A stretch of DNA of 64,000 nucleotides, taken from IMG/VR virus record IMGVR_UViG_3300046010_008569, positions 6,143 to 70,142 of that record; one strand, written 5' to 3'. The first letter of the stretch is position 1; each line of letters opens with the position of its first letter. The DNA is from a virus. This document shows, one piece after another, positions 22,168-47,166 of the stretch. The translations under genes were made by a program, and so were the position numbers. The notes beneath the pieces were generated by a model. The model was not told the origin of the DNA and made no database searches. It saw only the letters and a program-made list of their open reading frames with translations.

Positions 22168-23733
22168 TTAGTAAACCCGTCCTGACGGCCGGACGCTGCC
22201 GATCTCGTCGTCTTCAAACAACTGGTGCGTATCGTAATCTGAGCCGATAAAGGACCGATCTCGCAAATATTGCACGGCCTGCGTTACAGTATCTGCCAAG
22301 TCGTCATTCTCCCCGCGAGGAAGATCGGCGCATTCCTCGATAGTTACATCATTTAAGGGGCAATCTGTATTGTACCAGACCACCCCAGATGCAAAGATGT
22401 CCGCGACATTATTTGCCCGGGCCACTTTATCGTTGCTCGCCCCGCCCGCTTTACGGGCAGGGACGTAAGATTCGACTGGGAAGCCGGCGTAGTGGAGTTC
22501 ATCGATTAACGATATACCGCTACCGCGGCCTTCGACCAGGATCACGTCCACAAAATCGCCGGTTCCGTAGTCTTGCTTGACCTGATACTTGAGCGCCGGG
22601 AACTCGAGACGATCCCGATAGCTGTCAATCAGCATGATGTTGGCCTTGTTCCGGCCATCGGCGTCTGGATGGTAGAACACACCCCAGCGCGTGCGCGCTG
22701 AGAAGTTGTTGGCGGTCTTTGAGGTGAAGGCCGTGTCCCAGCTGTCGAGGACGTAGGAGAAAGCCGGCAGCTGGCTCTTCTGCCATGGGCGCCAGTGATC
22801 GCGCTTGATGATCGCGCCGCCTTCGGTCGTCGGATTCTGGAGGTACTGAGCGTTCCACCGGGCTGGCGGAATTTCCGCCCTGATTTTCATGAGCTCTTCG
22901 TAGGACCAGAACTCGGGCCACAGTGGGTTCTTTGTTTCTTCAAAGACGGCCGGGAAGCTGAAGTCTTTCCAGTCTTCGATGTTGCCCTGATCCAGGGCCT
23001 TGGCCATGATCTGGCCTGACATATCGCGCTTCGACCAGCGCGTCATACACAGGACGATAACGCCGCCAGGCTGAAGGCGCTGGCGAGCCAACCCGTACCA
23101 CTCAAATGCATCATCGAAGATTTTGGGGTTGTATTGACCCAGCAGCGCATCCGTTTCGGAATGGGGGTCATCGATGTTGAGGATGTGAGCACCGCGGCCC
23201 GCGAGGGCGCCGCCAACACCGGTGGCGTAGTAATCGCCACCCCTGCTAGTGTTCCAGCGGCCGGCAGAGCGGCTGTCTGCTTTGATCGTGACGCCACCGA
23301 AGAGGTCCTTGTATGGTTGAGATTCCATGGTGTCGCGAACGCGACGACCGAAGCCGGACGCAAGTTCGGCTGTGTTGGAAACCTGAATGATCTTGTTGCT
23401 AGGATGGTGTCCGAAGTAGAAGCTGGGGTTCAGCCATGAGCAGAACTCAGACTTCGTGTGTCGAGGCGGGAGGTGGATGAGGACCCGCTTTAGTTCGCCG
23501 CGGTTAATCCCATCGAAGATTTTAGCCATCTCTCGATGGTGCCGGCCTTCAACGAACTTTCCGACATACTGCGGGAACATATATCGGGCATACCCGATGA
23601 AGGTGTTTCGAGCGTCCTCGAGCTCACGCTTATTCCGATAGTCCTCCAGCATTCGGAGGATTTCACGCTGATCGGAAATGGGTAGCTTAGCGATCTCATC
23701 GAGATCGAGATCAGGTAGGGGTGGCGTACCCAT
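22168..23733 (-). CDS. terL: Terminase large subunit
   Basis: LPPRHTKSE Walker A, GRGAHILNIDDP Walker B, MTRW, SWDTA nuclease, NDDLADT. Confidence 0.95.
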   Translation of the reverse strand: MGTPPLPDLDLDEIAKLPISDQREILRMLEDYRNKRELEDARNTFIGYARYMFPQYVGKFVEGRHHREMAKIFDGINRGELKRVLIHLPPRHTKSEFCSWLNPSFYFGHHPSNKIIQVSNTAELASGFGRRVRDTMESQPYKDLFGGVTIKADSRSAGRWNTSRGGDYYATGVGGALAGRGAHILNIDDPHSETDALLGQYNPKIFDDAFEWYGLARQRLQPGGVIVLCMTRWSKRDMSGQIMAKALDQGNIEDWKDFSFPAVFEETKNPLWPEFWSYEELMKIRAEIPPARWNAQYLQNPTTEGGAIIKRDHWRPWQKSQLPAFSYVLDSWDTAFTSKTANNFSARTRWGVFYHPDADGRNKANIMLIDSYRDRLEFPALKYQVKQDYGTGDFVDVILVEGRGSGISLIDELHYAGFPVESYVPARKAGGASNDKVARANNVADIFASGVVWYNTDCPLNDVTIEECADLPRGENDDLADTVTQAVQYLRDRSFIGSDYDTHQLFEDDEIGSVRPSGRVY

Positions 23734-24520: not shown

Positions 24521-26179
24521 TTACGAGGCCGAAGGACCTTCAACAACGATCACCGGTTCAGCGGCCGGCTCTTCAGCTGGCTTTGCTTCTCCGGCAACCG
24601 GCTCAGCAGCTTTGGCTTCCTCGACGGCCACGTTCACTGCTTCGTTGAATACTTCAGCTGCGACAGCCTCGGCAGCAGCCGGGTCCTCGGCGGCGATAGC
24701 AGCCGCCTCAACCACGATGGCTTGAGCGCCATCGACTTGAACATCTACCGCTTCGACAACTTCCGTTGCCTCAAGAGCGGACTGCTCGGCGGCTACGTCG
24801 CGGGCTTCTTCCAGTTCAAGCTGGGCTTGATCAAAGGCGACATCTTCCGTCGCTTGTTCGACAACCGCAACTGCTTCAGCCGTGTTCAGGACTTCGTCCG
24901 GAACTTGCTCGGCAATGGCGACCACGTCGCTGGCAGCTTCCACCAGACCAGTGTCAACGATCAGGGCTTCTACCGTCGCTTCAGTGCGTTCGGCTTCGGC
25001 TTCCACATTGGCAGCGGCTGATGTTTCAGCAGCAGCGGCGGCGATCAGGGCATCGGCAGCAGCCTTGGCTGCTTCCTCAGCAGCTAGACGGTCACGCTCT
25101 TGCTCAGCAGCCAGGGCCTCGGCAGCAGCCTTCGCAGCGGCTTCAGCGGCAGCCAGTTCTTCAGCCGCGATGCGATCACGTTCCTGCTCGGCGGCAAGCG
25201 CCTCAGCGGCAAGACGTTCTGCCTCTGCCTTGGCGGCAGCTTCGGCCTCAGCGGCGACACGAGCAGCTTCCGCTGCTGCGGCCTCTTCAGCCAAGCGAGC
25301 AGCTTCAGCTTCGGCAGCGGCCTTAGCGGCAGCTTCGGCTTCAGCAGCTGCCCTAGCAGCGGCTTCGTCGGCAAGGCGTTGCGCTTCCGCAGCAGCGGCA
25401 GCTTCAGCAGCGGCTGCTTCTTCTGCGGCTACACGAGCCGCTTCAGCGGCGGCAGCTTCTTCAGCAGCTAGGCGCGTACGCTCAGCTTCCTCAGCTGCAA
25501 CACGCTCGGCATCGAGACGGGCAGCTTCAGCAGCAGCGGCCTCTTCGGCGGCGATGCGGGTACGCTCTGCTTCCGCGGCGGCAATAGCAGCCGCTTCCTC
25601 AAGGGCCTTGGCGGCAGCTTCGGCAGCCAGTCGATCAAGCTCAGCTTGAGCAGCAGCGGCTTCCTGTGCGGCGATGGCGGCAAGGCGCTCTTCCTCAGCT
25701 TTGGCGGCTGCGGCGGCGGCCTCCTCACGAGCCTTCAGGGCTGCGTCGATTTCCTCTTGAGTTGGAGCAGCCGGGGGAGCTTCTTCGCTCAACCCCGGCT
25801 GCAAGCCGTCACCCACCGGGTCTGGAGCGGGGGCGGCATCTTGTTCCACTACAATAACAGGACTCGGGATAATGTCAACCGGATTGTCAGTGACGACAAC
25901 AACCGGGCCTTGGGCCATCTCGTCTTGGATTTCCTGGTCGGCATCGCCGGACAGGATCAGGTTGCGGAAGTTGGAGACGTTCGAGAACGCCTTAGATTCA
26001 AAGGACTTGGCTTCTTCGGCCGCGCGCAGGGCGTCGGCCTCTCGCTTTTCCGCGGCAACGCGGATAGCCGCGTTCTCCTCGATTACAGACTCGAAAGCTG
26101 CAACGGCGCGCTGCGTGACAGAGGCGCTGTCCAGCCATTCCTTAACTACTGCTGCGAAACGCTTATCAAACGAAGACAT
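24521..26179 (-). CDS. Ala/Glu-rich long helical protein
   Basis: About 250 aa of EAAA/AAEE-type repeats; AAGGAAGG RBS. Confidence 0.75.
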   Translation of the reverse strand: MSSFDKRFAAVVKEWLDSASVTQRAVAAFESVIEENAAIRVAAEKREADALRAAEEAKSFESKAFSNVSNFRNLILSGDADQEIQDEMAQGPVVVVTDNPVDIIPSPVIVVEQDAAPAPDPVGDGLQPGLSEEAPPAAPTQEEIDAALKAREEAAAAAAKAEEERLAAIAAQEAAAAQAELDRLAAEAAAKALEEAAAIAAAEAERTRIAAEEAAAAEAARLDAERVAAEEAERTRLAAEEAAAAEAARVAAEEAAAAEAAAAAEAQRLADEAAARAAAEAEAAAKAAAEAEAARLAEEAAAAEAARVAAEAEAAAKAEAERLAAEALAAEQERDRIAAEELAAAEAAAKAAAEALAAEQERDRLAAEEAAKAAADALIAAAAAETSAAANVEAEAERTEATVEALIVDTGLVEAASDVVAIAEQVPDEVLNTAEAVAVVEQATEDVAFDQAQLELEEARDVAAEQSALEATEVVEAVDVQVDGAQAIVVEAAAIAAEDPAAAEAVAAEVFNEAVNVAVEEAKAAEPVAGEAKPAEEPAAEPVIVVEGPSAS

Positions 26180-26251
26180 GGAAACGACCCTTCCTTAGGA
26201 CCCTGAAAGTTGAGATAGCTTCGGGTTATGTACCCTACCCGGCGTGGTAAT

Positions 26252-26440
26252 TCAATCCCAGCCGGCGTACTGAAGATGGCCTTTCATGGAATTGTAAAAC
26301 CACTCAAGGGCATAGATCAGCGCCAGGCAAGAAGCCATGAAGAGAATCGCTTTGACGTTGATCGTCAAGCTGAAGATCAGCGCCACAAGAAAGACGAGAC
26401 CCTTCATCGGTAGAGCGAAGCTCCTGGCTGAGACTTGCAT
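26252..26440 (-). CDS. Small membrane protein
   Basis: Two hydrophobic segments; start uncertain. Confidence 0.45.
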   Translation of the reverse strand: MQVSARSFALPMKGLVFLVALIFSLTINVKAILFMASCLALIYALEWFYNSMKGHLQYAGWD

Positions 26441-26664
26441 TCAGCGATGTGCTGCTCGAGGATGGTTACGATCCTCTCGAGGCGCTGGATGTATTCCTTA
26501 CTTGGCCGCGGCGCTGAGGAGCAGATATGCATCCCGTTATGGTCGGGCAGCCAGCCGATCATGACATGGTGGGCGCCGTAGTTAGCGAGGTCGAAGCTGA
26601 TGGGATCGAGCTTCTGCTTGAAATAGCTTTCGGGCGTGATCGGCTGTTCGTTGATGAATGTCAT
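26404..26664 (-). CDS. Hypothetical protein
   Basis: Coupled ORF with AGGAG RBS. Confidence 0.6.
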   Translation of the reverse strand: MTFINEQPITPESYFKQKLDPISFDLANYGAHHVMIGWLPDHNGMHICSSAPRPSKEYIQRLERIVTILEQHIAECKSQPGASLYR

Positions 26665-26873
26665 CGGCCCATTAACTCCTGAGTTATCCGCGCTGCCTCA
26701 GCCTTGAGCTCCGCCATCTGCTGGCGAAGCTTGAACTCTTTCTGAACCGCGGTGTCAATCGTGCGTGATGCGGCCTTCCACGGGCCACCCCGCTCCGGCT
26801 CCCCGGCCGCAATGGACGCCTGCTCAAAGGCGTCCTTGAGGACGCACAGGATGTTTAGAGTTTCAGTGTTCAT
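26661..26873 (-). CDS. Hypothetical protein
   Basis: AGAAGGG RBS; coupled to the downstream gene. Confidence 0.6.
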   Translation of the reverse strand: MNTETLNILCVLKDAFEQASIAAGEPERGGPWKAASRTIDTAVQKEFKLRQQMAELKAEAARITQELMGR

Positions 26874-26895
26874 TAATAAACCCTTCTAAACTAAT

Positions 26896-27590
26896 CTAGC
26901 CGCCACACCCCTGTGCGGTTAATCGGCCTCTGCCGAACGGCTAGGATAGCGGTCAGTGAGGCTGCAACTAACCTTACGGCTGCTCCATGGAGCGTTGCAG
27001 TGGTCTCACCGAGCGCACTGGAGCGAGGGCTGGGCGGAACTCCAACTGTACCAGCTGTTAATGCAGCCTGGCTTCCCTTACGCCCTAGCTTTGCGTCTCC
27101 GCGCCACCGGGTCCTCGCAAACTTAATCTGCACCCCGGAACCACTAAGCGTTCTCCGGGTCATCACGCTATCACAAGACCCTTCCCATGGGTGATCTTGT
27201 GCATCCCTGTTTTACGGTTGTCTCCCTTCTGGGAGAGCCGCGTGCAGAACTTACAGTGGGCTTGGGTCGAAGCGATGAGTACACCCAATTCAACCCGACC
27301 GAGCGCGCCGGAACCCACATTAAATAAATGACAGCCAACCGCTAGTATCACGGCCCAGTCGCAAGTCTGACCCAGACGCCCATCGGCTTGCGATTCTCCA
27401 GGGCGAAGGTAGGCTGTCATTGTCTCTCGGGGAGCGGCCACGCTCCCCTTCCCCGCCAGGATAAATGGCCTTGCCTTGGCGGGAGTACCTTTGATCGGAG
27501 GCTCAGTGTCGAACTGAGGTGGCGCACACCAAGCACTCGCACGAATGCTCCCGGGAGAGTTCAACTCCCACACGTACCGCTACCCTCCGA
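26896..27590 (-). ncRNA. Putative large structured ncRNA or cluster of small RNAs, including a tRNA-like domain
   Basis: About eight consecutive closed stem domains tile the gap; G-U wobbles fit the minus strand. Confidence 0.6.
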
Positions 27591-27593
27591 GAC

Positions 27594-27995
27594 TCATAAC
27601 TCCTTCTTCTTGTCCTTATGCCAGGGCAGCTTAATCAACAAGCCCCCATCGATCTCAAACTCTGCCGCGGAGCGGCGTAATTTTGTTTTACCATCATGCG
27701 GTATCAAGACCGATTCGGCAAGTAAATCATTTTTAACAGGCGACGCCTTGCGGAGCTTAAGGACGCCATCCTCCGCTGGAACCAGCTTGATCCATCCAGC
27801 ATGATCGCCAGAGCCGATCTCCAGCGCCAGAAGAAAGCCATCACCTCCTCCAAACAGCGCCTGAGAAGCTTCGGCAGTGAGCATGACATACGGCGTCAAT
27901 CTTCCCTTAGAGCCTCTCCTGCGGGCTCCTATGCTGATTGCGGGGGTATTCTGAACGACCCCTTTAGTGGGTCGTTCGACGGGAGCGAATGTCAC
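27594..27995 (-). CDS. Hypothetical protein
   Basis: Coupled ORF. Confidence 0.6.
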   Translation of the reverse strand: MTFAPVERPTKGVVQNTPAISIGARRRGSKGRLTPYVMLTAEASQALFGGGDGFLLALEIGSGDHAGWIKLVPAEDGVLKLRKASPVKNDLLAESVLIPHDGKTKLRRSAAEFEIDGGLLIKLPWHKDKKKEL

Positions 27996-28207
27996 TCAGA
28001 ACCACCTTCTCGCTCATCCTCGGAGAGGGAGTAGTCCCAGCGACGGAAGGCGCTCGGGACCTCGCTCCCAGCATCTTTCCATTCCTTAACGATGTCAGCC
28101 ATGATGTCATCATTGGCTGGACCGCAGCATTCGTAGAGGCTGTCCACAGTGTAAAGGAGAAACTCTCGTTCGTTCTTTGCCGCGGCGGTTTCCGATTCAA
28201 TACTCAT
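27992..28207 (-). CDS. Hypothetical protein
   Basis: Coupled ORF (ATGA overlap). Confidence 0.6.
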   Translation of the reverse strand: MSIESETAAAKNEREFLLYTVDSLYECCGPANDDIMADIVKEWKDAGSEVPSAFRRWDYSLSEDEREGGSE

Positions 28208-28467
28208 CCTAGATCATCCTGCTGTGCTTCCGGTCGGTTGACCAGGTCTGGCCACTTGCCATCGTTGTACTCGCTGTACGCTCGTCGCCAGCCCTCGTAG
28301 AACTCCGGGCTGTCGTGCTCCCTGGGGAACCTACCTTCGACAAAGGCATTCCAGCCGGCAGCGAACTCAGTGTCGCCACCCTCATCGGAAAGCTTAAACA
28401 CCGCCACTCGGTCGTTTAGTCTGGCTACGGCATTGGTCATGTTCGCTACGCTCACATACGCAGCCAT
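28204..28467 (-). CDS. Hypothetical protein with Rmf/CrpP-like motif
   Basis: FAAGWNAF..G...EFYEGWRRAY; probable start 28467; the longer track ORF runs into repeat DNA. Confidence 0.45.
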   Translation of the reverse strand: MAAYVSVANMTNAVARLNDRVAVFKLSDEGGDTEFAAGWNAFVEGRFPREHDSPEFYEGWRRAYSEYNDGKWPDLVNRPEAQQDDLG

Positions 28468-28490
28468 GGCTGCTTCTTGCATCAACAGAT

Positions 28491-28608
28491 ATGTGACTTG
28501 GATTTGCATTGCAACTAACGTGATGGAGTTTTGTATAAAATTTTTGTAATGGGTATATGGGACCCAGTGATGTGATTTGGAAAATGTAATTTGGGAAATG
28601 TGATTTGT
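28491..28608. repeat. Direct repeats ATGTRAYTTG(G/T)
   Basis: Copies at 28491, 28570, 28584 and 28598, the last three at 14-bp period. Confidence 0.7.
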
Positions 28609-28765
28609 GTGGAGTTTGGATTGGAAATTTTTCTGGACTTGGGTCTGGATTGTTAATTGAATAGCGGGAGTGGGGCGCGCGTGCATAAGCGGGGGTGCGG
28701 GTGGGTGGGGTTTCGCGCGGAGGATAGCTCGGGCGTACGCGCGTGCTGTTGCCCCGAAGGGGCAA

Positions 28766-28811
28766 CATTACCGATTTGTAACTTGAGTTCCGGTTGGGTT
28801 CATGGGATGAT
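28766..28811 (+). promoter_or_regulatory. Putative promoter with TTAC-N6-GTAA operator
   Basis: CATTACCGATTTGTAACTTGAGTT is nearly identical to 30145-30168; TTGAGT-17-GATGAT. Confidence 0.45.
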
Positions 28812-29401: not shown

Positions 29402-30049
29402 TTAAAGGCTGTTCTTTCCGCCGCTTAGCTGGCTCACTCGCTCTTTAATCTGCTCCATGACCTCTTCTGAGGTGGCTGCGGCTCGCTCTGCGGCCTTGCC
29501 TTCAGCGACAGCCACGGCCCTATGTTCGCTCAGCGCTTTGAGCGCGGCGATCCTAGCGGCGGCTGAATTGTTGGGGTCGGCGGCTTCTGCTTCTAATCGT
29601 TTAACGATAAAGTTGTCCAGCCGGGAGGCGGTGTGTGACACATCACCCTCCTCCTGATCAAGCCTCGTGATAATGCTGCTACGTACATCTGGCTTCTTCG
29701 CCAGGGCGTTAGCCCTGGAATACATACGCTCATAAGACATCACCTCAACGACCTGTTCCCGGTCATCAATGATCTGGACCGCATAGCAGAGCTCAGGGAA
29801 GCTCTGCTTGTATGCCTCCACTAGGCTGGCCCCTGATGCGACTAGCTCAGCGAAGCTATTCTCCTGTTCTGTCAGCCTATCACTGGCGCCTTCAGCGATG
29901 GCCTCTTTGGCCATTCGCTTGAACATGGCGATCTTATTCTGGTTGGTTGGAGTGGTGGAGCCTTTCTTCTTTCCTCCCTTACCCTGAGACTCAAGCTCTC
30001 TCTTACGAGAGAGCAGGTCTATGATCTTGTCTTTGTCTGGGGTGTCCAT
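29402..30049 (-). CDS. Putative terminase small subunit
   Basis: LTEQENSFAELVASG....EAYK...ANALAKKPDV...I and ARIAALKAL, typical of the TerS HTH and oligomerisation segments. Confidence 0.6.
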   Translation of the reverse strand: MDTPDKDKIIDLLSRKRELESQGKGGKKKGSTTPTNQNKIAMFKRMAKEAIAEGASDRLTEQENSFAELVASGASLVEAYKQSFPELCYAVQIIDDREQVVEVMSYERMYSRANALAKKPDVRSSIITRLDQEEGDVSHTASRLDNFIVKRLEAEAADPNNSAAARIAALKALSEHRAVAVAEGKAAERAAATSEEVMEQIKERVSQLSGGKNSL

Positions 30050-46951: not shown

Positions 46952-46980
46952 TTGACTGATTCCGGTGACGAGGCTATGTT
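46952..46980 (+). promoter_or_regulatory. Sigma70-type promoter
   Basis: TTGACT-17-TATGTT. Confidence 0.6.
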
Positions 46981-47004
46981 GTGCCAGTTCGTCGGCCAAG
47001 AACC

Positions 47005-47050
47005 GAGGGTCGTCGCTGAGCATCAGGCAGCGGCGACCCTCAATCATTTT
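47005..47050 (+). terminator. 14-bp hairpin, terminator-like
   Basis: GAGGGTCGTCGCTG/CAGCGGCGACCCTC then AATCATTTT; G-U pair fits the plus strand. Confidence 0.55.
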
Positions 47051-47094: not shown

Positions 47095-47166
47095 GCGGCT
47101 AGTACTCAGCGGTAGAGCCATGGATTGTGTCCTTGAGGACGCCGGTTCGAGTCCGGCCGTCTTATC
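47095..47166 (+). pseudogene. Degenerate tRNA-like sequence (His/Thr-like)
   Basis: D arm CTCAGCGGTAGAG, GGATTGTG anticodon region, perfect T arm GCCGG-TTCGAGT-CCGGC; acceptor stem does not pair; no CCA. Confidence 0.55.

What the first reader, a model, noticed from the sequence alone, without database searches (positions are those of the whole stretch)
26896..27590. 700-nt intergenic stretch tiled by about eight closed RNA domains
SEEN: consecutive domains are closed by long-range stems and separated by short, often A/U-rich linkers. They are 26896-26944 (CTAGCCG), 26949-27016 (TCGGTGAG/CTCACTGA plus CTGCAAC/GTTGCAG), 27023-27118 (GCGAGG plus GCTAGGGCG/CGCCCAGC), 27127-27248 (TCTGCAC enclosing three hairpins), 27256-27318 (GTGGGTT/AGCCCAC), 27327-27421 (AATGACAGCC plus TCGCAAG/CTTGCGA), the 27429-27484 hairpins, and 27495-27590. 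Wobble pairs are G-U on the minus strand, the direction of the flanking genes. The ORFs here lack RBSs and look spurious. KNOWN: phages encode large ncRNAs (GOLLD, ROOL) and tRNA clusters; I cannot match this to either. INFERENCE: a new large ncRNA or a polycistronic array of small structured RNAs, possibly decoys against host defence or RNA-binding proteins.
Basis: partly seen in the sequence, partly recalled or inferred. Interest (0 to 1): 0.85.

Follow-up and report, generated by a model that had tools for sequence, protein, structure and literature searches.

The report
Orphan structured non-coding stretch in phage
An uncultured lake phage carries a 720-base stretch that does not look protein-coding and folds into an unusually dense row of compact multi-stem RNA modules, probably a new structured RNA, but it has no alignable relatives, so its function is unproven.

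Summary
The gap 26874-27593 is real. It lies between two leftward genes of an IMG/VR phage contig.

Folding energy beats all 100 shuffles on both strands. The phage's own coding DNA reaches similar z-scores, so energy alone proves little.

A post-hoc architectural count is more telling. The minus strand forms 7 multi-branch junctions. Six are closed by stems of 6 bp or more with a flush last branch. Shuffles average 0.79 (0 of 150 reach 6), and 172 control values from the same window have a maximum of 3.

Two ORFs tile the gap (19 of 2000 shuffles do as well). They lack the phage's codon signature, have no homologues and are predicted unfolded.

Rfam and ARAGORN find nothing.

Two relatives carry different, non-alignable non-coding DNA at the same locus. 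That DNA has the same kind of junction modules, and one module co-varies between the two relatives.

Verdict: probably a modular structured RNA on the minus strand. No covariation or solid expression evidence exists for the window itself.

The parts
26874..27593 (-). Whole non-coding, structure-rich stretch between the stop of the 133-aa gene and the start of the 70-aa gene
   Evidence: Sequence and ORFs. Codon tests. Fold z-scores. Junction statistic. No Rfam or tRNA hit.
27495..27590 (-). Module D8: a five-branch junction closed by the 7-bp all-Watson-Crick stem UCGGAGG/CCUCCGA. Its last hairpin, 27518-27502 (CUCAG-UUCGACA-CUGAG), has a T-arm-like form and abuts the closing stem.
   Evidence: Folds. 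It is the only one of 5 T-arm-like hairpins on both strands of the window that has an abutting 7-bp stem. ARAGORN finds nothing at default settings and only low-grade calls at 80% threshold. In isolation z is only -1.28. Long-range helices compete with it.
27429..27484 (-). D7: two stable hairpins, 27484-27451 and 27448-27429
   Evidence: Pair probability 0.90 and 0.99. z -2.59 minus, -3.96 plus.
27327..27421 (-). D6: closed by the 10-bp stem AAUGACAGCC/GGCUGUCAUU, with an inner two-branch junction at 27393-27359
   Evidence: Pair probability 0.96. z -2.27 minus, -4.41 plus. Junction. Contains the 21-nt patch similar to L084.
27256..27318 (-). D5: a two-branch junction closed by the 7-bp stem GUGGGUU/AGCCCAC
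   Evidence: (z -1.45). In the unrestricted fold, part of its 5' arm pairs elsewhere.
27127..27248 (-). D4: a three-hairpin junction closed by the 7-bp stem UCUGCAC/GUGCAGA, flush on both sides. This is the best-supported module.
   Evidence: z -4.68, 0 of 200 shuffles. Pair probability 0.97. Junction. The only RNA-library contig on the 3-kb stretch laid covers 27097-27247.
27023..27118 (-). D3: the weakest module, closed by GCGAGG/CCUCGC, with an inner junction at 27102-27034
   Evidence: z -1.09. Inner helices have pair probability 0.57-0.58. It shares flanking words with domains of L082 and L084, but the test for colinear words is not significant.
26949..27016 (-). D2: an outer stem enclosing the 7-bp stem CUGCAAC/GUUGCAG and two small hairpins
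   Evidence: z -3.69, 0 of 200 shuffles. Pair probability 0.91 for the inner stem. Junction.
26896..26944 (-). D1: a two-hairpin junction closed by the 7-bp stem CUAGCCG/CGGCUAG, 22 nt before the next start codon
   Evidence: z -3.96. Junction. Best window match of the model built from the relatives' module: 11 bits, E 0.025 in 3 kb, which is weak.
27163..27573 (-). 136-codon ORF, called as a gene in public collections but probably not translated
   Evidence: Codon log-likelihood 0.07 per codon versus 0.25-0.47 in 10 of 10 flanking genes. Only self-hits in 5.8 billion clusters and 1.84 billion representatives. ESM Atlas pLDDT 0.27. AlphaFold2 pLDDT 32.5 with no secondary structure.
26891..27166 (-). 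91-codon ORF overlapping the stop of the previous ORF (UGAUG), probably not translated
   Evidence: Codon log-likelihood -0.10 per codon and GC at codon position 2 of 0.63. Only a self-hit. Together with the 136-codon ORF it covers 95% of the gap, which 19 of 2000 shuffles reach.
27594..27995 (-). Upstream flanking gene, 133 aa, a real gene of unknown function
   Evidence: Homologues at 56-59% identity, conserved from residue 1. AlphaFold2 on the single sequence gives pLDDT 49.9 and 9 secondary-structure elements. No Pfam or PHROG family.
26661..26873 (-). Downstream flanking gene, 70 aa
   Evidence: Coding signature: GC at codon position 3 of 0.72 and log-likelihood 0.29 per codon. No family. 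Absent from L082.

Best explanation
The 720 nt are a non-coding part of the leftward transcript of an uncultured lake phage. That transcript runs on into the terminase and structural genes.

On the minus strand the RNA folds into a row of compact multi-stem modules of about 50-120 nt. Most are closed by a 6-7-bp stem, with the last inner hairpin stacked directly on that stem. The first module also carries a canonical T-loop hairpin next to a 7-bp acceptor-like stem.

Inferred mechanism, not shown: the modules act as RNA-level elements of the long message. The stem-plus-abutting-hairpin minihelices would serve as tRNA-like processing or punctuation signals for RNase P or RNase Z, with RNase E cutting in the A/U-rich linkers. 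Alternatively or additionally they block exonucleases. A G-rich, C-poor, tightly folded spacer would also resist Rho loading in an untranslated stretch.

The locus evolves by gain, loss and replacement of modules. This would explain why relatives have non-alignable sequence of different length at the same place.

Shown here: non-coding character, the unusual architecture, and its recurrence at the syntenic locus. Inferred: transcription, the strand, processing, and any function.
For: Non-coding:
- GC at codon position 2 is 0.55-0.63, against 0.39-0.45 in nine of the ten comparison genes (0.51 in the Ala/Glu-rich 552-aa gene).
- Codon log-likelihood is 0.07 and -0.10 per codon, against 0.25-0.47 in 10 of 10 flanking genes.
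- The ORFs have only self-hits.
- ESM Atlas pLDDT is 0.27 for the 136-codon ORF and 0.47 for the real neighbour.
- AlphaFold2 gives 32.5 with 0 secondary-structure elements, against 49.9 with 9 elements for the neighbour.

Structure:
- 0 of 100 shuffles fold as well on either strand.
- There are 6 flush junctions with stems of at least 6 bp. Shuffles average 0.79 and 0 of 150 reach 6. The maximum among 172 control values is 3.
- The minus-strand count is stable at 5-6 across span settings.

Strand:
- The minus-strand junction count is 5-6 against 2-5 on the plus strand.
- There are 14 versus 7 G-U pairs internal to helices.
- The T-loop reads correctly only on the minus strand.
- All 3 relaxed ARAGORN calls are on the minus strand.
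- No minus-strand terminator lies between the flanking genes.

Locus:
- L082 has about 350 nt and L084 at least 231 nt of non-coding DNA at the same synteny position. They hold 2 and 1 flush junction modules, against background means of 0.48 and 0.29 per 355 nt.
- One module of about 100 nt is shared by L082 and L084. Of its 23 predicted pairs, 8 changed on both sides and 0 are broken. Its G-U pairs lie on the gene strand.

Expression hint: the only RNA-library contig on the 3 kb laid falls inside the stretch, at 27097-27247.
Against: - No homologue of the window's stretch was found, so there is no covariation for it. Sequence searches against L082, L084 and 160 other loci gave nothing significant.
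- The model built from the relatives' shared module scores only 11 bits on the window.
- Relatives with 76-82% identical terminase do not conserve the sequence. That is unusual for a functional RNA.
- The relatives' non-coding stretches do not fold better than shuffles as wholes: z -0.65, -1.04 and -0.36.
- Coding DNA of this phage reaches z -4.5, so the energy excess is small.
- Whole-region z is stronger on the plus strand, and ensemble diversity is 142 on the minus strand against 74 on the plus.
- The junction statistic was defined after seeing the data. One of 86 background values ties the region at span 200.
- Two co-directional ORFs tile 95% of the gap, which 19 of 2000 shuffles reach. 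They have a UGAUG stop-start overlap and a GGAGG before the first ORF.
- A 7-residue in-frame identity with an open frame in L084 has 3 of 3 nucleotide differences synonymous.
- The RNA contig has depth 2, has no strand information, and could be DNA carry-over.
Confidence: 0.45

Rival explanations
1. The stretch is one stand-alone large non-coding RNA of about 650-720 nt, in the manner of GOLLD, ROOL or OLE. Its ends are brought together by a long-range helix, and it acts in trans, for example as a scaffold or decoy.
For: - An 11-bp helix, 27586-27576 with 26953-26943, has pair probability 0.94 and closes 644 nt. A second helix, 27526-27518 with 27108-27100, has probability 0.93.
- The multi-junction architecture is an outlier in the genome.
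- GOLLD is lake-derived and phage-associated (abstract listing of PMC12286853).
Against: - No Rfam match to GOLLD, ROOL, OLE or any other family, even at E up to 10.
- By my own estimate, helices of 8-11 bp at that range are expected about 0.4 to 4 times by chance in 720 nt.
- No own promoter or minus-strand terminator was found.
- The sequence is not conserved in relatives.
- Few loops are of the GNRA or UNCG type (read by eye from the folds).
Confidence: 0.12
2. The stretch is non-functional or fast-decaying DNA at a mosaic junction: a remnant of swapped accessory genes. Its structure is a by-product of G+C-rich composition and former coding sequence.
For: - The locus is variable. The window has 720 nt plus 70-aa and 86-aa genes. 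L082 has about 350 nt and neither gene. L084 has other genes.
- No sequence conservation.
- Open frames persist more than expected, with 19 of 2000 shuffles matching, as in a young pseudogene.
- Coding DNA of this phage also folds well.
- The L084 contig ends inside the stretch.
Against: - The junction count of 6 has no equal among 172 control values from coding DNA of the same genome or among 150 shuffles.
- The same kind of module recurs at the locus in both relatives, and one module co-varies between them.
- The translations have no detectable protein relatives.
- 720 nt of junk is unusual in a densely coded phage genome (general knowledge).
Confidence: 0.22
3. The two minus-strand ORFs (136 and 91 codons) are real, fast-evolving orphan genes, and the RNA structure is incidental.
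For: - They tile the gap exactly. They start 20 nt after the upstream stop, have a UGAUG stop-start overlap, and stop 17 nt before the next start.
- Tiling is matched by only 19 of 2000 shuffles.
- A GGAGG lies 10 nt before the first GUG.
- Public gene callers called both ORFs (P0004 and P0005).
- AVILAVG is shared in frame with an open frame in L084, and 3 of 3 differences are synonymous.
Against: - The codon log-likelihood stays near zero along the whole length, whereas 17 of 18 tested real genes of the three phages score at least 0.18.
- GC at codon position 2 is 0.55-0.63.
- No relatives among 1.84 billion representatives.
- pLDDT is 0.27 by ESM and 32.5 by AlphaFold2, with no helix or strand. 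The orphan neighbour gives 0.47 and 49.9 with 9 elements.
- BLASTP for the 7-mer gives E 0.085, and the upstream nucleotide similarity is out of frame.
- L082 has stops in all three frames at the locus.
Confidence: 0.13
4. The functional strand is the plus strand or the DNA itself: an antisense RNA to the late operon, or a structured single-stranded DNA signal such as a replication or packaging site.
For: - Whole-region z is stronger on the plus strand: -5.42 versus -3.99 and -5.74 versus -2.97.
- Ensemble diversity is lower on the plus strand, 74 versus 142.
- A terminator-like hairpin with a T-run lies on the plus strand at 27663-27687, just past the stretch.
Against: - No plus-strand promoter-like site was found.
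- Terminator-like sites are no more frequent than in shuffles: 3 found against a mean of 3.0.
- The junction count is lower and unstable on the plus strand, 2-5.
- G-U pairs and the T-loop favour the minus strand.
- No iterons or repeats.
- The stretch lies about 3 kb from the terminase genes.
Confidence: 0.08

Closest known systems
tRNA-like processing signals in long transcripts: plant mitochondrial t-elements, the mascRNA type, and phage tRNA clusters
   Same: Modules of about tRNA size sit in a row on the gene strand. Each is closed by a 7-bp stem with a hairpin stacked on its 3' strand, which is the acceptor/T-arm minihelix that RNase P and RNase Z recognise (recalled). Module D8 has a canonical T-loop, UUCGA, closed by a G-C pair. 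The t-element paper PMC1920247 was seen only as a search listing.
   Different: No module is a tRNA by ARAGORN or Rfam. Only 1 of 8 modules has a T-loop. Module sizes range from 49 to 122 nt. There is no anticodon arm, D-loop GG or CCA. No cleavage has been shown.
GOLLD and ROOL large ornate RNAs of phages and prophages
   Same: Hundreds of nucleotides long, with many multi-stem junctions, encoded by a phage. GOLLD was found in lake metagenomes (abstract listing of PMC12286853).
   Different: No match to either Rfam model, even at E up to 10. Not next to tRNA genes, since none is in the window. No conserved sequence across relatives. No evidence of a discrete transcript.
RNase III processing hairpins of the phage T7 early transcript.
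   Same: Structured intercistronic RNA in a long phage message, presumed to organise processing or stability.
   Different: Here there is one 720-nt block of branched junction modules rather than single repeated hairpins between genes. There is no repeat family, and it lies on the opposite, leftward operon.
Candidate structured RNAs mined from IMG/VR intergenic regions (PMC10690425)
   Same: Same data source and the same kind of object. That study also reports tRNA-like candidates (passages read).
   Different: Those candidates are 29-151 nt long and required matches to at least 3 unique regions plus covariation. This stretch has no such matches. Their supplementary lists could not be opened, so absence from them is not verified.

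Membership tests
GOLLD / ROOL / OLE (Rfam covariance models) | A score at or near the family's gathering threshold against the curated model | tested here: not met
   0 matches at gathering thresholds in the whole window. In sensitive mode on 26700-27800, 6 chance-level matches appeared, none to these families, with the best at 21 bits against a gathering score of 55.
tRNA gene or tRNA cluster | Cloverleaf with anticodon arm, D arm and T arm, recognised by ARAGORN or Rfam RF00005 | tested here: not met
   ARAGORN found 0 genes in the window and 0 at default settings on the stretch. At 80% threshold it gave 3 low-grade overlapping calls. No tRNA match in Rfam E-value mode.
tRNA-like minihelix (acceptor stem plus T arm) | A 7-bp stem whose 3' strand directly follows a 5-bp hairpin with a 7-nt UUCRANN loop | tested here: met
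   Met once, by D8 (27590-27495). It is the only one of 5 T-arm-like hairpins on both strands of the 64-kb window with such a stem, and all 7 pairs are Watson-Crick. The other modules have the flush stem-hairpin geometry but no T-loop.
tRNA-like processing signal (t-element type) | Cleavage by RNase P or RNase Z at the module borders | not testable with these tools
   Only contigs were available, and they cannot show RNA ends.
tmRNA | tRNA-like domain plus tag reading frame, recognised by ARAGORN or Rfam | tested here: not met
   None at default settings. At 80% threshold ARAGORN gave a 'permuted' call with an unidentified tag. No Rfam match.
Group I or group II intron | A match to intron models and interruption of a host gene | tested here: not met
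   The only match was a 13.4-bit chance hit to a plastid group II D1 model, whose gathering score is 55.2. The flanking ORFs are separate genes with their own stop and start.
Protein-coding gene | The genome's codon and GC-phase signature, homologues, and a foldable product | tested here: not met
   Log-likelihood 0.07 and -0.10 per codon against 0.25-0.47. GC at codon position 2 of 0.55-0.63. Only self-hits. pLDDT 0.27 and 32.5.
Protein-coding gene | Open frames with start and stop placed like neighbouring genes | tested here: met
   Two ORFs cover 95% of the gap, which 19 of 2000 shuffles reach. They have a UGAUG overlap, and a GGAGG lies 10 nt before the first start.
Conserved structured RNA family (any) | Homologues with compensatory base changes | tested here: inconclusive
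   No homologue of the window's stretch was found. Between relatives L082 and L084, one module has 8 of 23 pairs changed on both sides and 0 broken, but that rests on only 2 sequences.

The most novel reading that the evidence does not exclude
A previously undescribed kind of phage RNA locus. It is an array of tRNA-sized multi-stem junction modules, each closed by a 7-bp acceptor-like stem stacked on a hairpin, kept at one position upstream of the packaging and structural genes. It turns over module by module between related phages. The modules would be cut out of the late message by the host's tRNA-processing enzymes. They would then act as punctuation for the transcript, or as a pool of tRNA-mimic decoys for host tRNA-directed enzymes or defences.
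Probability: 0.25. Interest if true: 0.75.

Novelty: new variant of a known kind. Interest (0 to 1): 0.5.

Why it matters
If real, this would be a large, family-less structured RNA region in an abundant freshwater phage lineage. It also shows that RNA architecture can be retained at a locus while sequence is replaced. Covariation-based screens, which need alignable homologues, would miss such cases.

It gives a concrete, testable case for tRNA-like punctuation of a phage late transcript.

It also corrects the public gene calls, which treat the stretch as two hypothetical proteins.

If it is not functional, it is a useful warning. In G+C-rich phage genomes, folding z-scores of -4 to -5 occur in ordinary coding DNA.

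Tried and rejected
Searches for relatives that gave nothing usable:
- blastn of 26000-28500 against GenBank phages found no match.
- Scans of viral contigs with the 133-aa and 552-aa proteins found none.
- The terminase scan found 177 relatives. The best 80 were kept, and only L002 is close (82%). Its contig ends 1040 nt upstream of the terminase, so it does not reach the locus.
- The 86-aa protein gave one spurious locus, L083.
- The alignment of the 215-aa protein gave only L082's contig again.
- A metagenome scan with the alignment of the 133-aa protein found none.
- A genome-contig scan with the same alignment found none.
- Two degenerate DNA patterns returned only unrelated contigs or L082's own contig.

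The sequencing runs laid on the stretch were identical to the window. They gave no variants and no covariation.

The search for runs listed 14 lake or freshwater runs. I draw no habitat conclusion from the small-share rows.

Parts of the 3-kb stretch without cover in the RNA run are not evidence of silence.

Homology of module D3 with the relatives' module: it shares flanking words with them, but the test for colinear words was not significant (160 of 1000 shuffles for L084 and 79 of 1000 for L082). The three-sequence MAFFT alignment was not structure-aware. I therefore dropped this as evidence.

A recurring AGU motif in the linkers, read as an RNase E-like site, depended on how the domains were partitioned. 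Only 1 of 12 AGU triplets fell in linkers at span 160. Dropped.

Model R1 found only its own two training sequences among 165 loci, plus two 17.8-bit hits (L145, L146) that I take to be chance.

The 133-aa neighbour has no RNA-related annotation. PDB and Pfam gave only chance-level hits, and the Atlas gave only a weak SpoVT/AbrB-like structural hint.

A first run of the span-robustness script hit the time limit and printed nothing. A smaller run used every second segment.

Of 12 planned control segments for z-scores, 9 were run before the time stop.

The claim that the stretch is not in print rests only on Rfam and three paper searches.
Full report
SETTING. The window is bases 6143-70142 of a 70,142-bp IMG/VR virus record, estimated 85% complete. 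PHROG matches identify a terminase large subunit (22168-23733), a major head protein, a primase/helicase and exonucleases, so this is a tailed phage.

The finding lies in a leftward gene run. A 133-aa gene (27594-27995) sits upstream. Genes of 70, 86 and 62 aa sit downstream, followed by a 552-aa Ala/Glu-rich protein and then the terminase. The 133-aa gene is real. It has relatives at 56-59% identity that are conserved from the first residue.

IS THE OBSERVATION THERE? Yes. On the minus strand the per-domain z-scores against 200 dinucleotide shuffles are:
- D1 -3.96
- D2 -3.69
- D3 -1.09
- D4 -4.68
- D5 -1.45
- D6 -2.27
- D7 -2.59
- D8 -1.28

These limits were hand-picked, so the values are biased.

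For the whole 720 nt, the tool gave z -2.97 on the minus strand and -5.74 on the plus strand with 20 shuffles. My run with base-pair span up to 140 nt and 100 shuffles gave -3.99 and -5.42, with 0 of 100 shuffles as stable on either strand.

The important control is that nine 720-nt coding segments of the same window gave z from -0.9 to -4.5. Folding energy alone therefore barely separates the stretch from this phage's genes. Sliding 150-nt windows likewise show only modest values.

A MORE SPECIFIC TEST. I counted multi-branch loops whose closing stem has at least 6 pairs and whose last inner helix lies 0-1 nt from that stem.
- The minus strand has 7 multi-branch loops, and 6 are of this kind. 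Five of them have closing stems of exactly 7 bp.
- Shuffles average 3.75 loops and 0.79 of this kind. None of 150 shuffles reaches 6.
- In 86 other 723-nt segments of the window, taken on both strands (172 values), the mean is 0.73 and the maximum 3.
- The minus-strand count stays at 5 or 6 for span limits 100, 120, 160, 200 and unlimited. The plus strand varies from 2 to 5.
- At span 200, one of 86 background values also reaches 5.

I defined this statistic after seeing the folds, so it is a lead that needs a pre-registered repeat. Even so, the effect is large. The exact eight-domain partition is not robust. At span 160 some domains merge. Unrestricted folding adds two probable long-range helices that compete with D8 and D3.

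CODING OR NOT? Two minus-strand ORFs of 136 and 91 codons tile 95% of the gap. Only 19 of 2000 shuffles do as well. They overlap by UGAUG, and a GGAGG lies 10 nt before the first GUG. Public gene callers called both. This needs a real answer.

Evidence against coding:
- GC at codon position 2 is 0.55 and 0.63, against 0.39-0.45 in nine of ten real genes here (0.51 in the Ala/Glu-rich 552-aa gene).
- A codon model trained on 26 long genes gives 0.07 and -0.10 per codon, against 0.25-0.47 for 10 of 10 neighbouring genes. The value stays near zero all along both ORFs.
- Neither ORF has any relative but itself in 5.8 billion clusters. The longer ORF has none in 1.84 billion representatives read by HMMER.
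- The ESM Atlas model of the longer ORF has pLDDT 0.27. AlphaFold2 gives 32.5 with no helix or strand. The equally orphan 133-aa neighbour gives 0.47 and 49.9, with nine secondary-structure elements.

One point remains unexplained. The longer ORF and an open frame at the cut end of relative L084 share AVILAVG in frame, and all three nucleotide differences are synonymous (BLASTP E 0.085). The nucleotide similarity just upstream is out of frame. That open frame in L084 also lacks a coding signature, at -0.085. I put coding at about 0.13.

KNOWN FAMILIES. Rfam has no match in the window at gathering thresholds. In sensitive mode there are only six chance-level matches on 26700-27800, and none is to GOLLD, ROOL, tRNA, tmRNA or a credible intron. 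ARAGORN finds no tRNA or tmRNA. At 80% threshold it makes three poor calls, all on the minus strand.

Module D8 does have a canonical T-arm, a 5-bp stem with loop UUCGACA. It is followed directly by the 3' strand of a 7-bp all-Watson-Crick stem. Of five T-arm-like hairpins on both strands of the window, it is the only one with such a stem. The rest of D8 is not tRNA-like.

RELATIVES. Few exist.
- L082 has 77% identity in a terminase tblastx segment, 58% in the 133-aa gene and about 70% nucleotide identity in neighbouring genes. Right after the 133-aa gene it has about 350 nt with stops in all frames. A small membrane-protein gene and the 552-aa homologue follow. It lacks the 70- and 86-aa genes.
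- L084 (terminase 76%) begins inside its non-coding stretch. Its 231 nt are followed by a possible homologue of the 86-aa gene. I judged that similarity by eye, and blastn found nothing in that interval.

Neither stretch aligns significantly with the window:
- blastn finds nothing.
- The best nhmmer E-value is 0.055 in a tiny database.
- Local alignment scores are 31 and 37, against shuffle means of 26 and 24 and maxima of 38 and 44.
- Shared 8-mers are enriched on the same strand: 11 observed against 4.5 expected (10 of 500 shuffles reach this), and 10 against 3.1 (4 of 500). They are not colinear.

As wholes the relatives' stretches do not fold better than shuffles. They do contain the same kind of flush junction modules. 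L082 has 2 and L084 has 1, against background means of 0.48 and 0.29 per 355 nt, with background maxima of 2 and 1.

L082 and L084 share one module of about 100 nt: an 8-bp closing stem and three hairpins. Of its 23 predicted pairs, 8 changed on both sides and none is broken. Its G-U pairs lie on the gene strand. That rests on two sequences and a structure chosen by RNAalifold. A model built from it scores only 11 bits on the window. The best hit is D1, the last module before the next gene, which is the same relative position. It finds nothing else credible in 165 loci.

EXPRESSION. Fourteen public runs hold part of the stretch, and one is a metatranscriptome. I laid four runs on 25800-28800. 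All pieces were identical to the window, so there are no variants. The RNA run contributed a single 151-nt contig at depth 2, covering 27097-27247 inside the stretch. This is a hint only. It carries no strand information and could be DNA.

READING. Taken together, this is a non-coding insert-like block in a dense phage operon. Its junction-rich architecture is an outlier in its own genome, and the same architecture recurs at the same locus in two relatives while the sequence is replaced. The most likely explanation is a modular structured RNA on the gene strand that is co-transcribed with the leftward operon. No minus-strand terminator lies between the flanking genes.

The repeated geometry is a 7-bp stem with a hairpin stacked on its 3' strand. 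This is the minihelix that tRNA-processing enzymes recognise (recalled knowledge). I therefore favour tRNA-like punctuation or end-protection of the message, at 0.45 for the structured-RNA reading as a whole and much less for the specific mechanism.

The rivals are decaying mosaic DNA (0.22), real orphan genes (0.13), a single large trans-acting RNA (0.12), and a plus-strand or DNA-level element (0.08).

LITERATURE. I read passages of PMC10690425. I saw PMC12286853 and PMC1920247 only as search listings with the start of their abstracts. The statements about RNase P and RNase Z minihelix recognition, Rho loading, and the RNase E site preference I considered are recalled, not checked.

Noticed in passing
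L084:3982-6504: In this relative the terminase large-subunit gene carries an insert of about 960 nt that is absent from the window. The insert has Hint-like and LAGLIDADG-like motifs (recognised by eye) and an apparent frame break between 4413 and 4432. It is probably an intein with a homing endonuclease.
   Followed up: partly
window 27334-27354 (minus) and L084:61-81: A 21-nt patch reads AVILAVG in the open frame of both phages. Its three differences are all synonymous. This is the only codon-like conservation seen, and neither reading explains it.
   Followed up: partly
window 27663-27687 (+): A terminator-like G+C-rich hairpin with a T-run lies on the plus strand inside the 133-aa gene, just past the stretch. 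Such sites are no more frequent here than in shuffles.
   Followed up: no
window 47141-47157 (+): A second well-formed T-arm-like hairpin (GCCGG-UUCGAGU-CCGGC) without an abutting acceptor stem. It lies about 90 nt from a small-RNA candidate (46952-47050) noted earlier by this scan.
   Followed up: no
window 26252-26440 (-); L082:5719-5867; L084:1276-1578: By eye, a small hydrophobic protein (or a hydrophobic C-terminal part) sits just before the 552-aa homologue in all three phages, while the genes around it differ.
   Followed up: no
window 29402-30049 (-): This 215-aa protein is 63% identical to its L082 counterpart. Its only family hint is a sub-threshold Pfam XRN1_D2_D3 match (E 0.002, 18 bits against a cut-off of 21.8). 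By eye its middle resembles the helix-turn-helix of small terminase subunits (recalled, untested).
   Followed up: no
window 27183-27176 (minus): One copy of the AAGGGUCU word lies inside module D4, 9 nt before the GUG of the 91-codon ORF. A variant, AAGGGUUU, precedes the 70-aa gene.
   Followed up: partly
window, one 723-nt segment not identified: At span limit 200, one background strand-value also reaches 5 flush junctions. I did not locate which segment it is. It may be another structured region.
   Followed up: no
window 24521-26179 (-): The 552-aa protein is extremely Ala/Glu-rich, with GC at codon position 1 of 0.84. It is conserved in L082 and L084 and matches no family.
   Followed up: no
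L084:1 (contig end): The relative's contig ends inside its non-coding stretch. L002's contig also stops short of the locus. Assemblies may break here because of strain variation.
   Followed up: no
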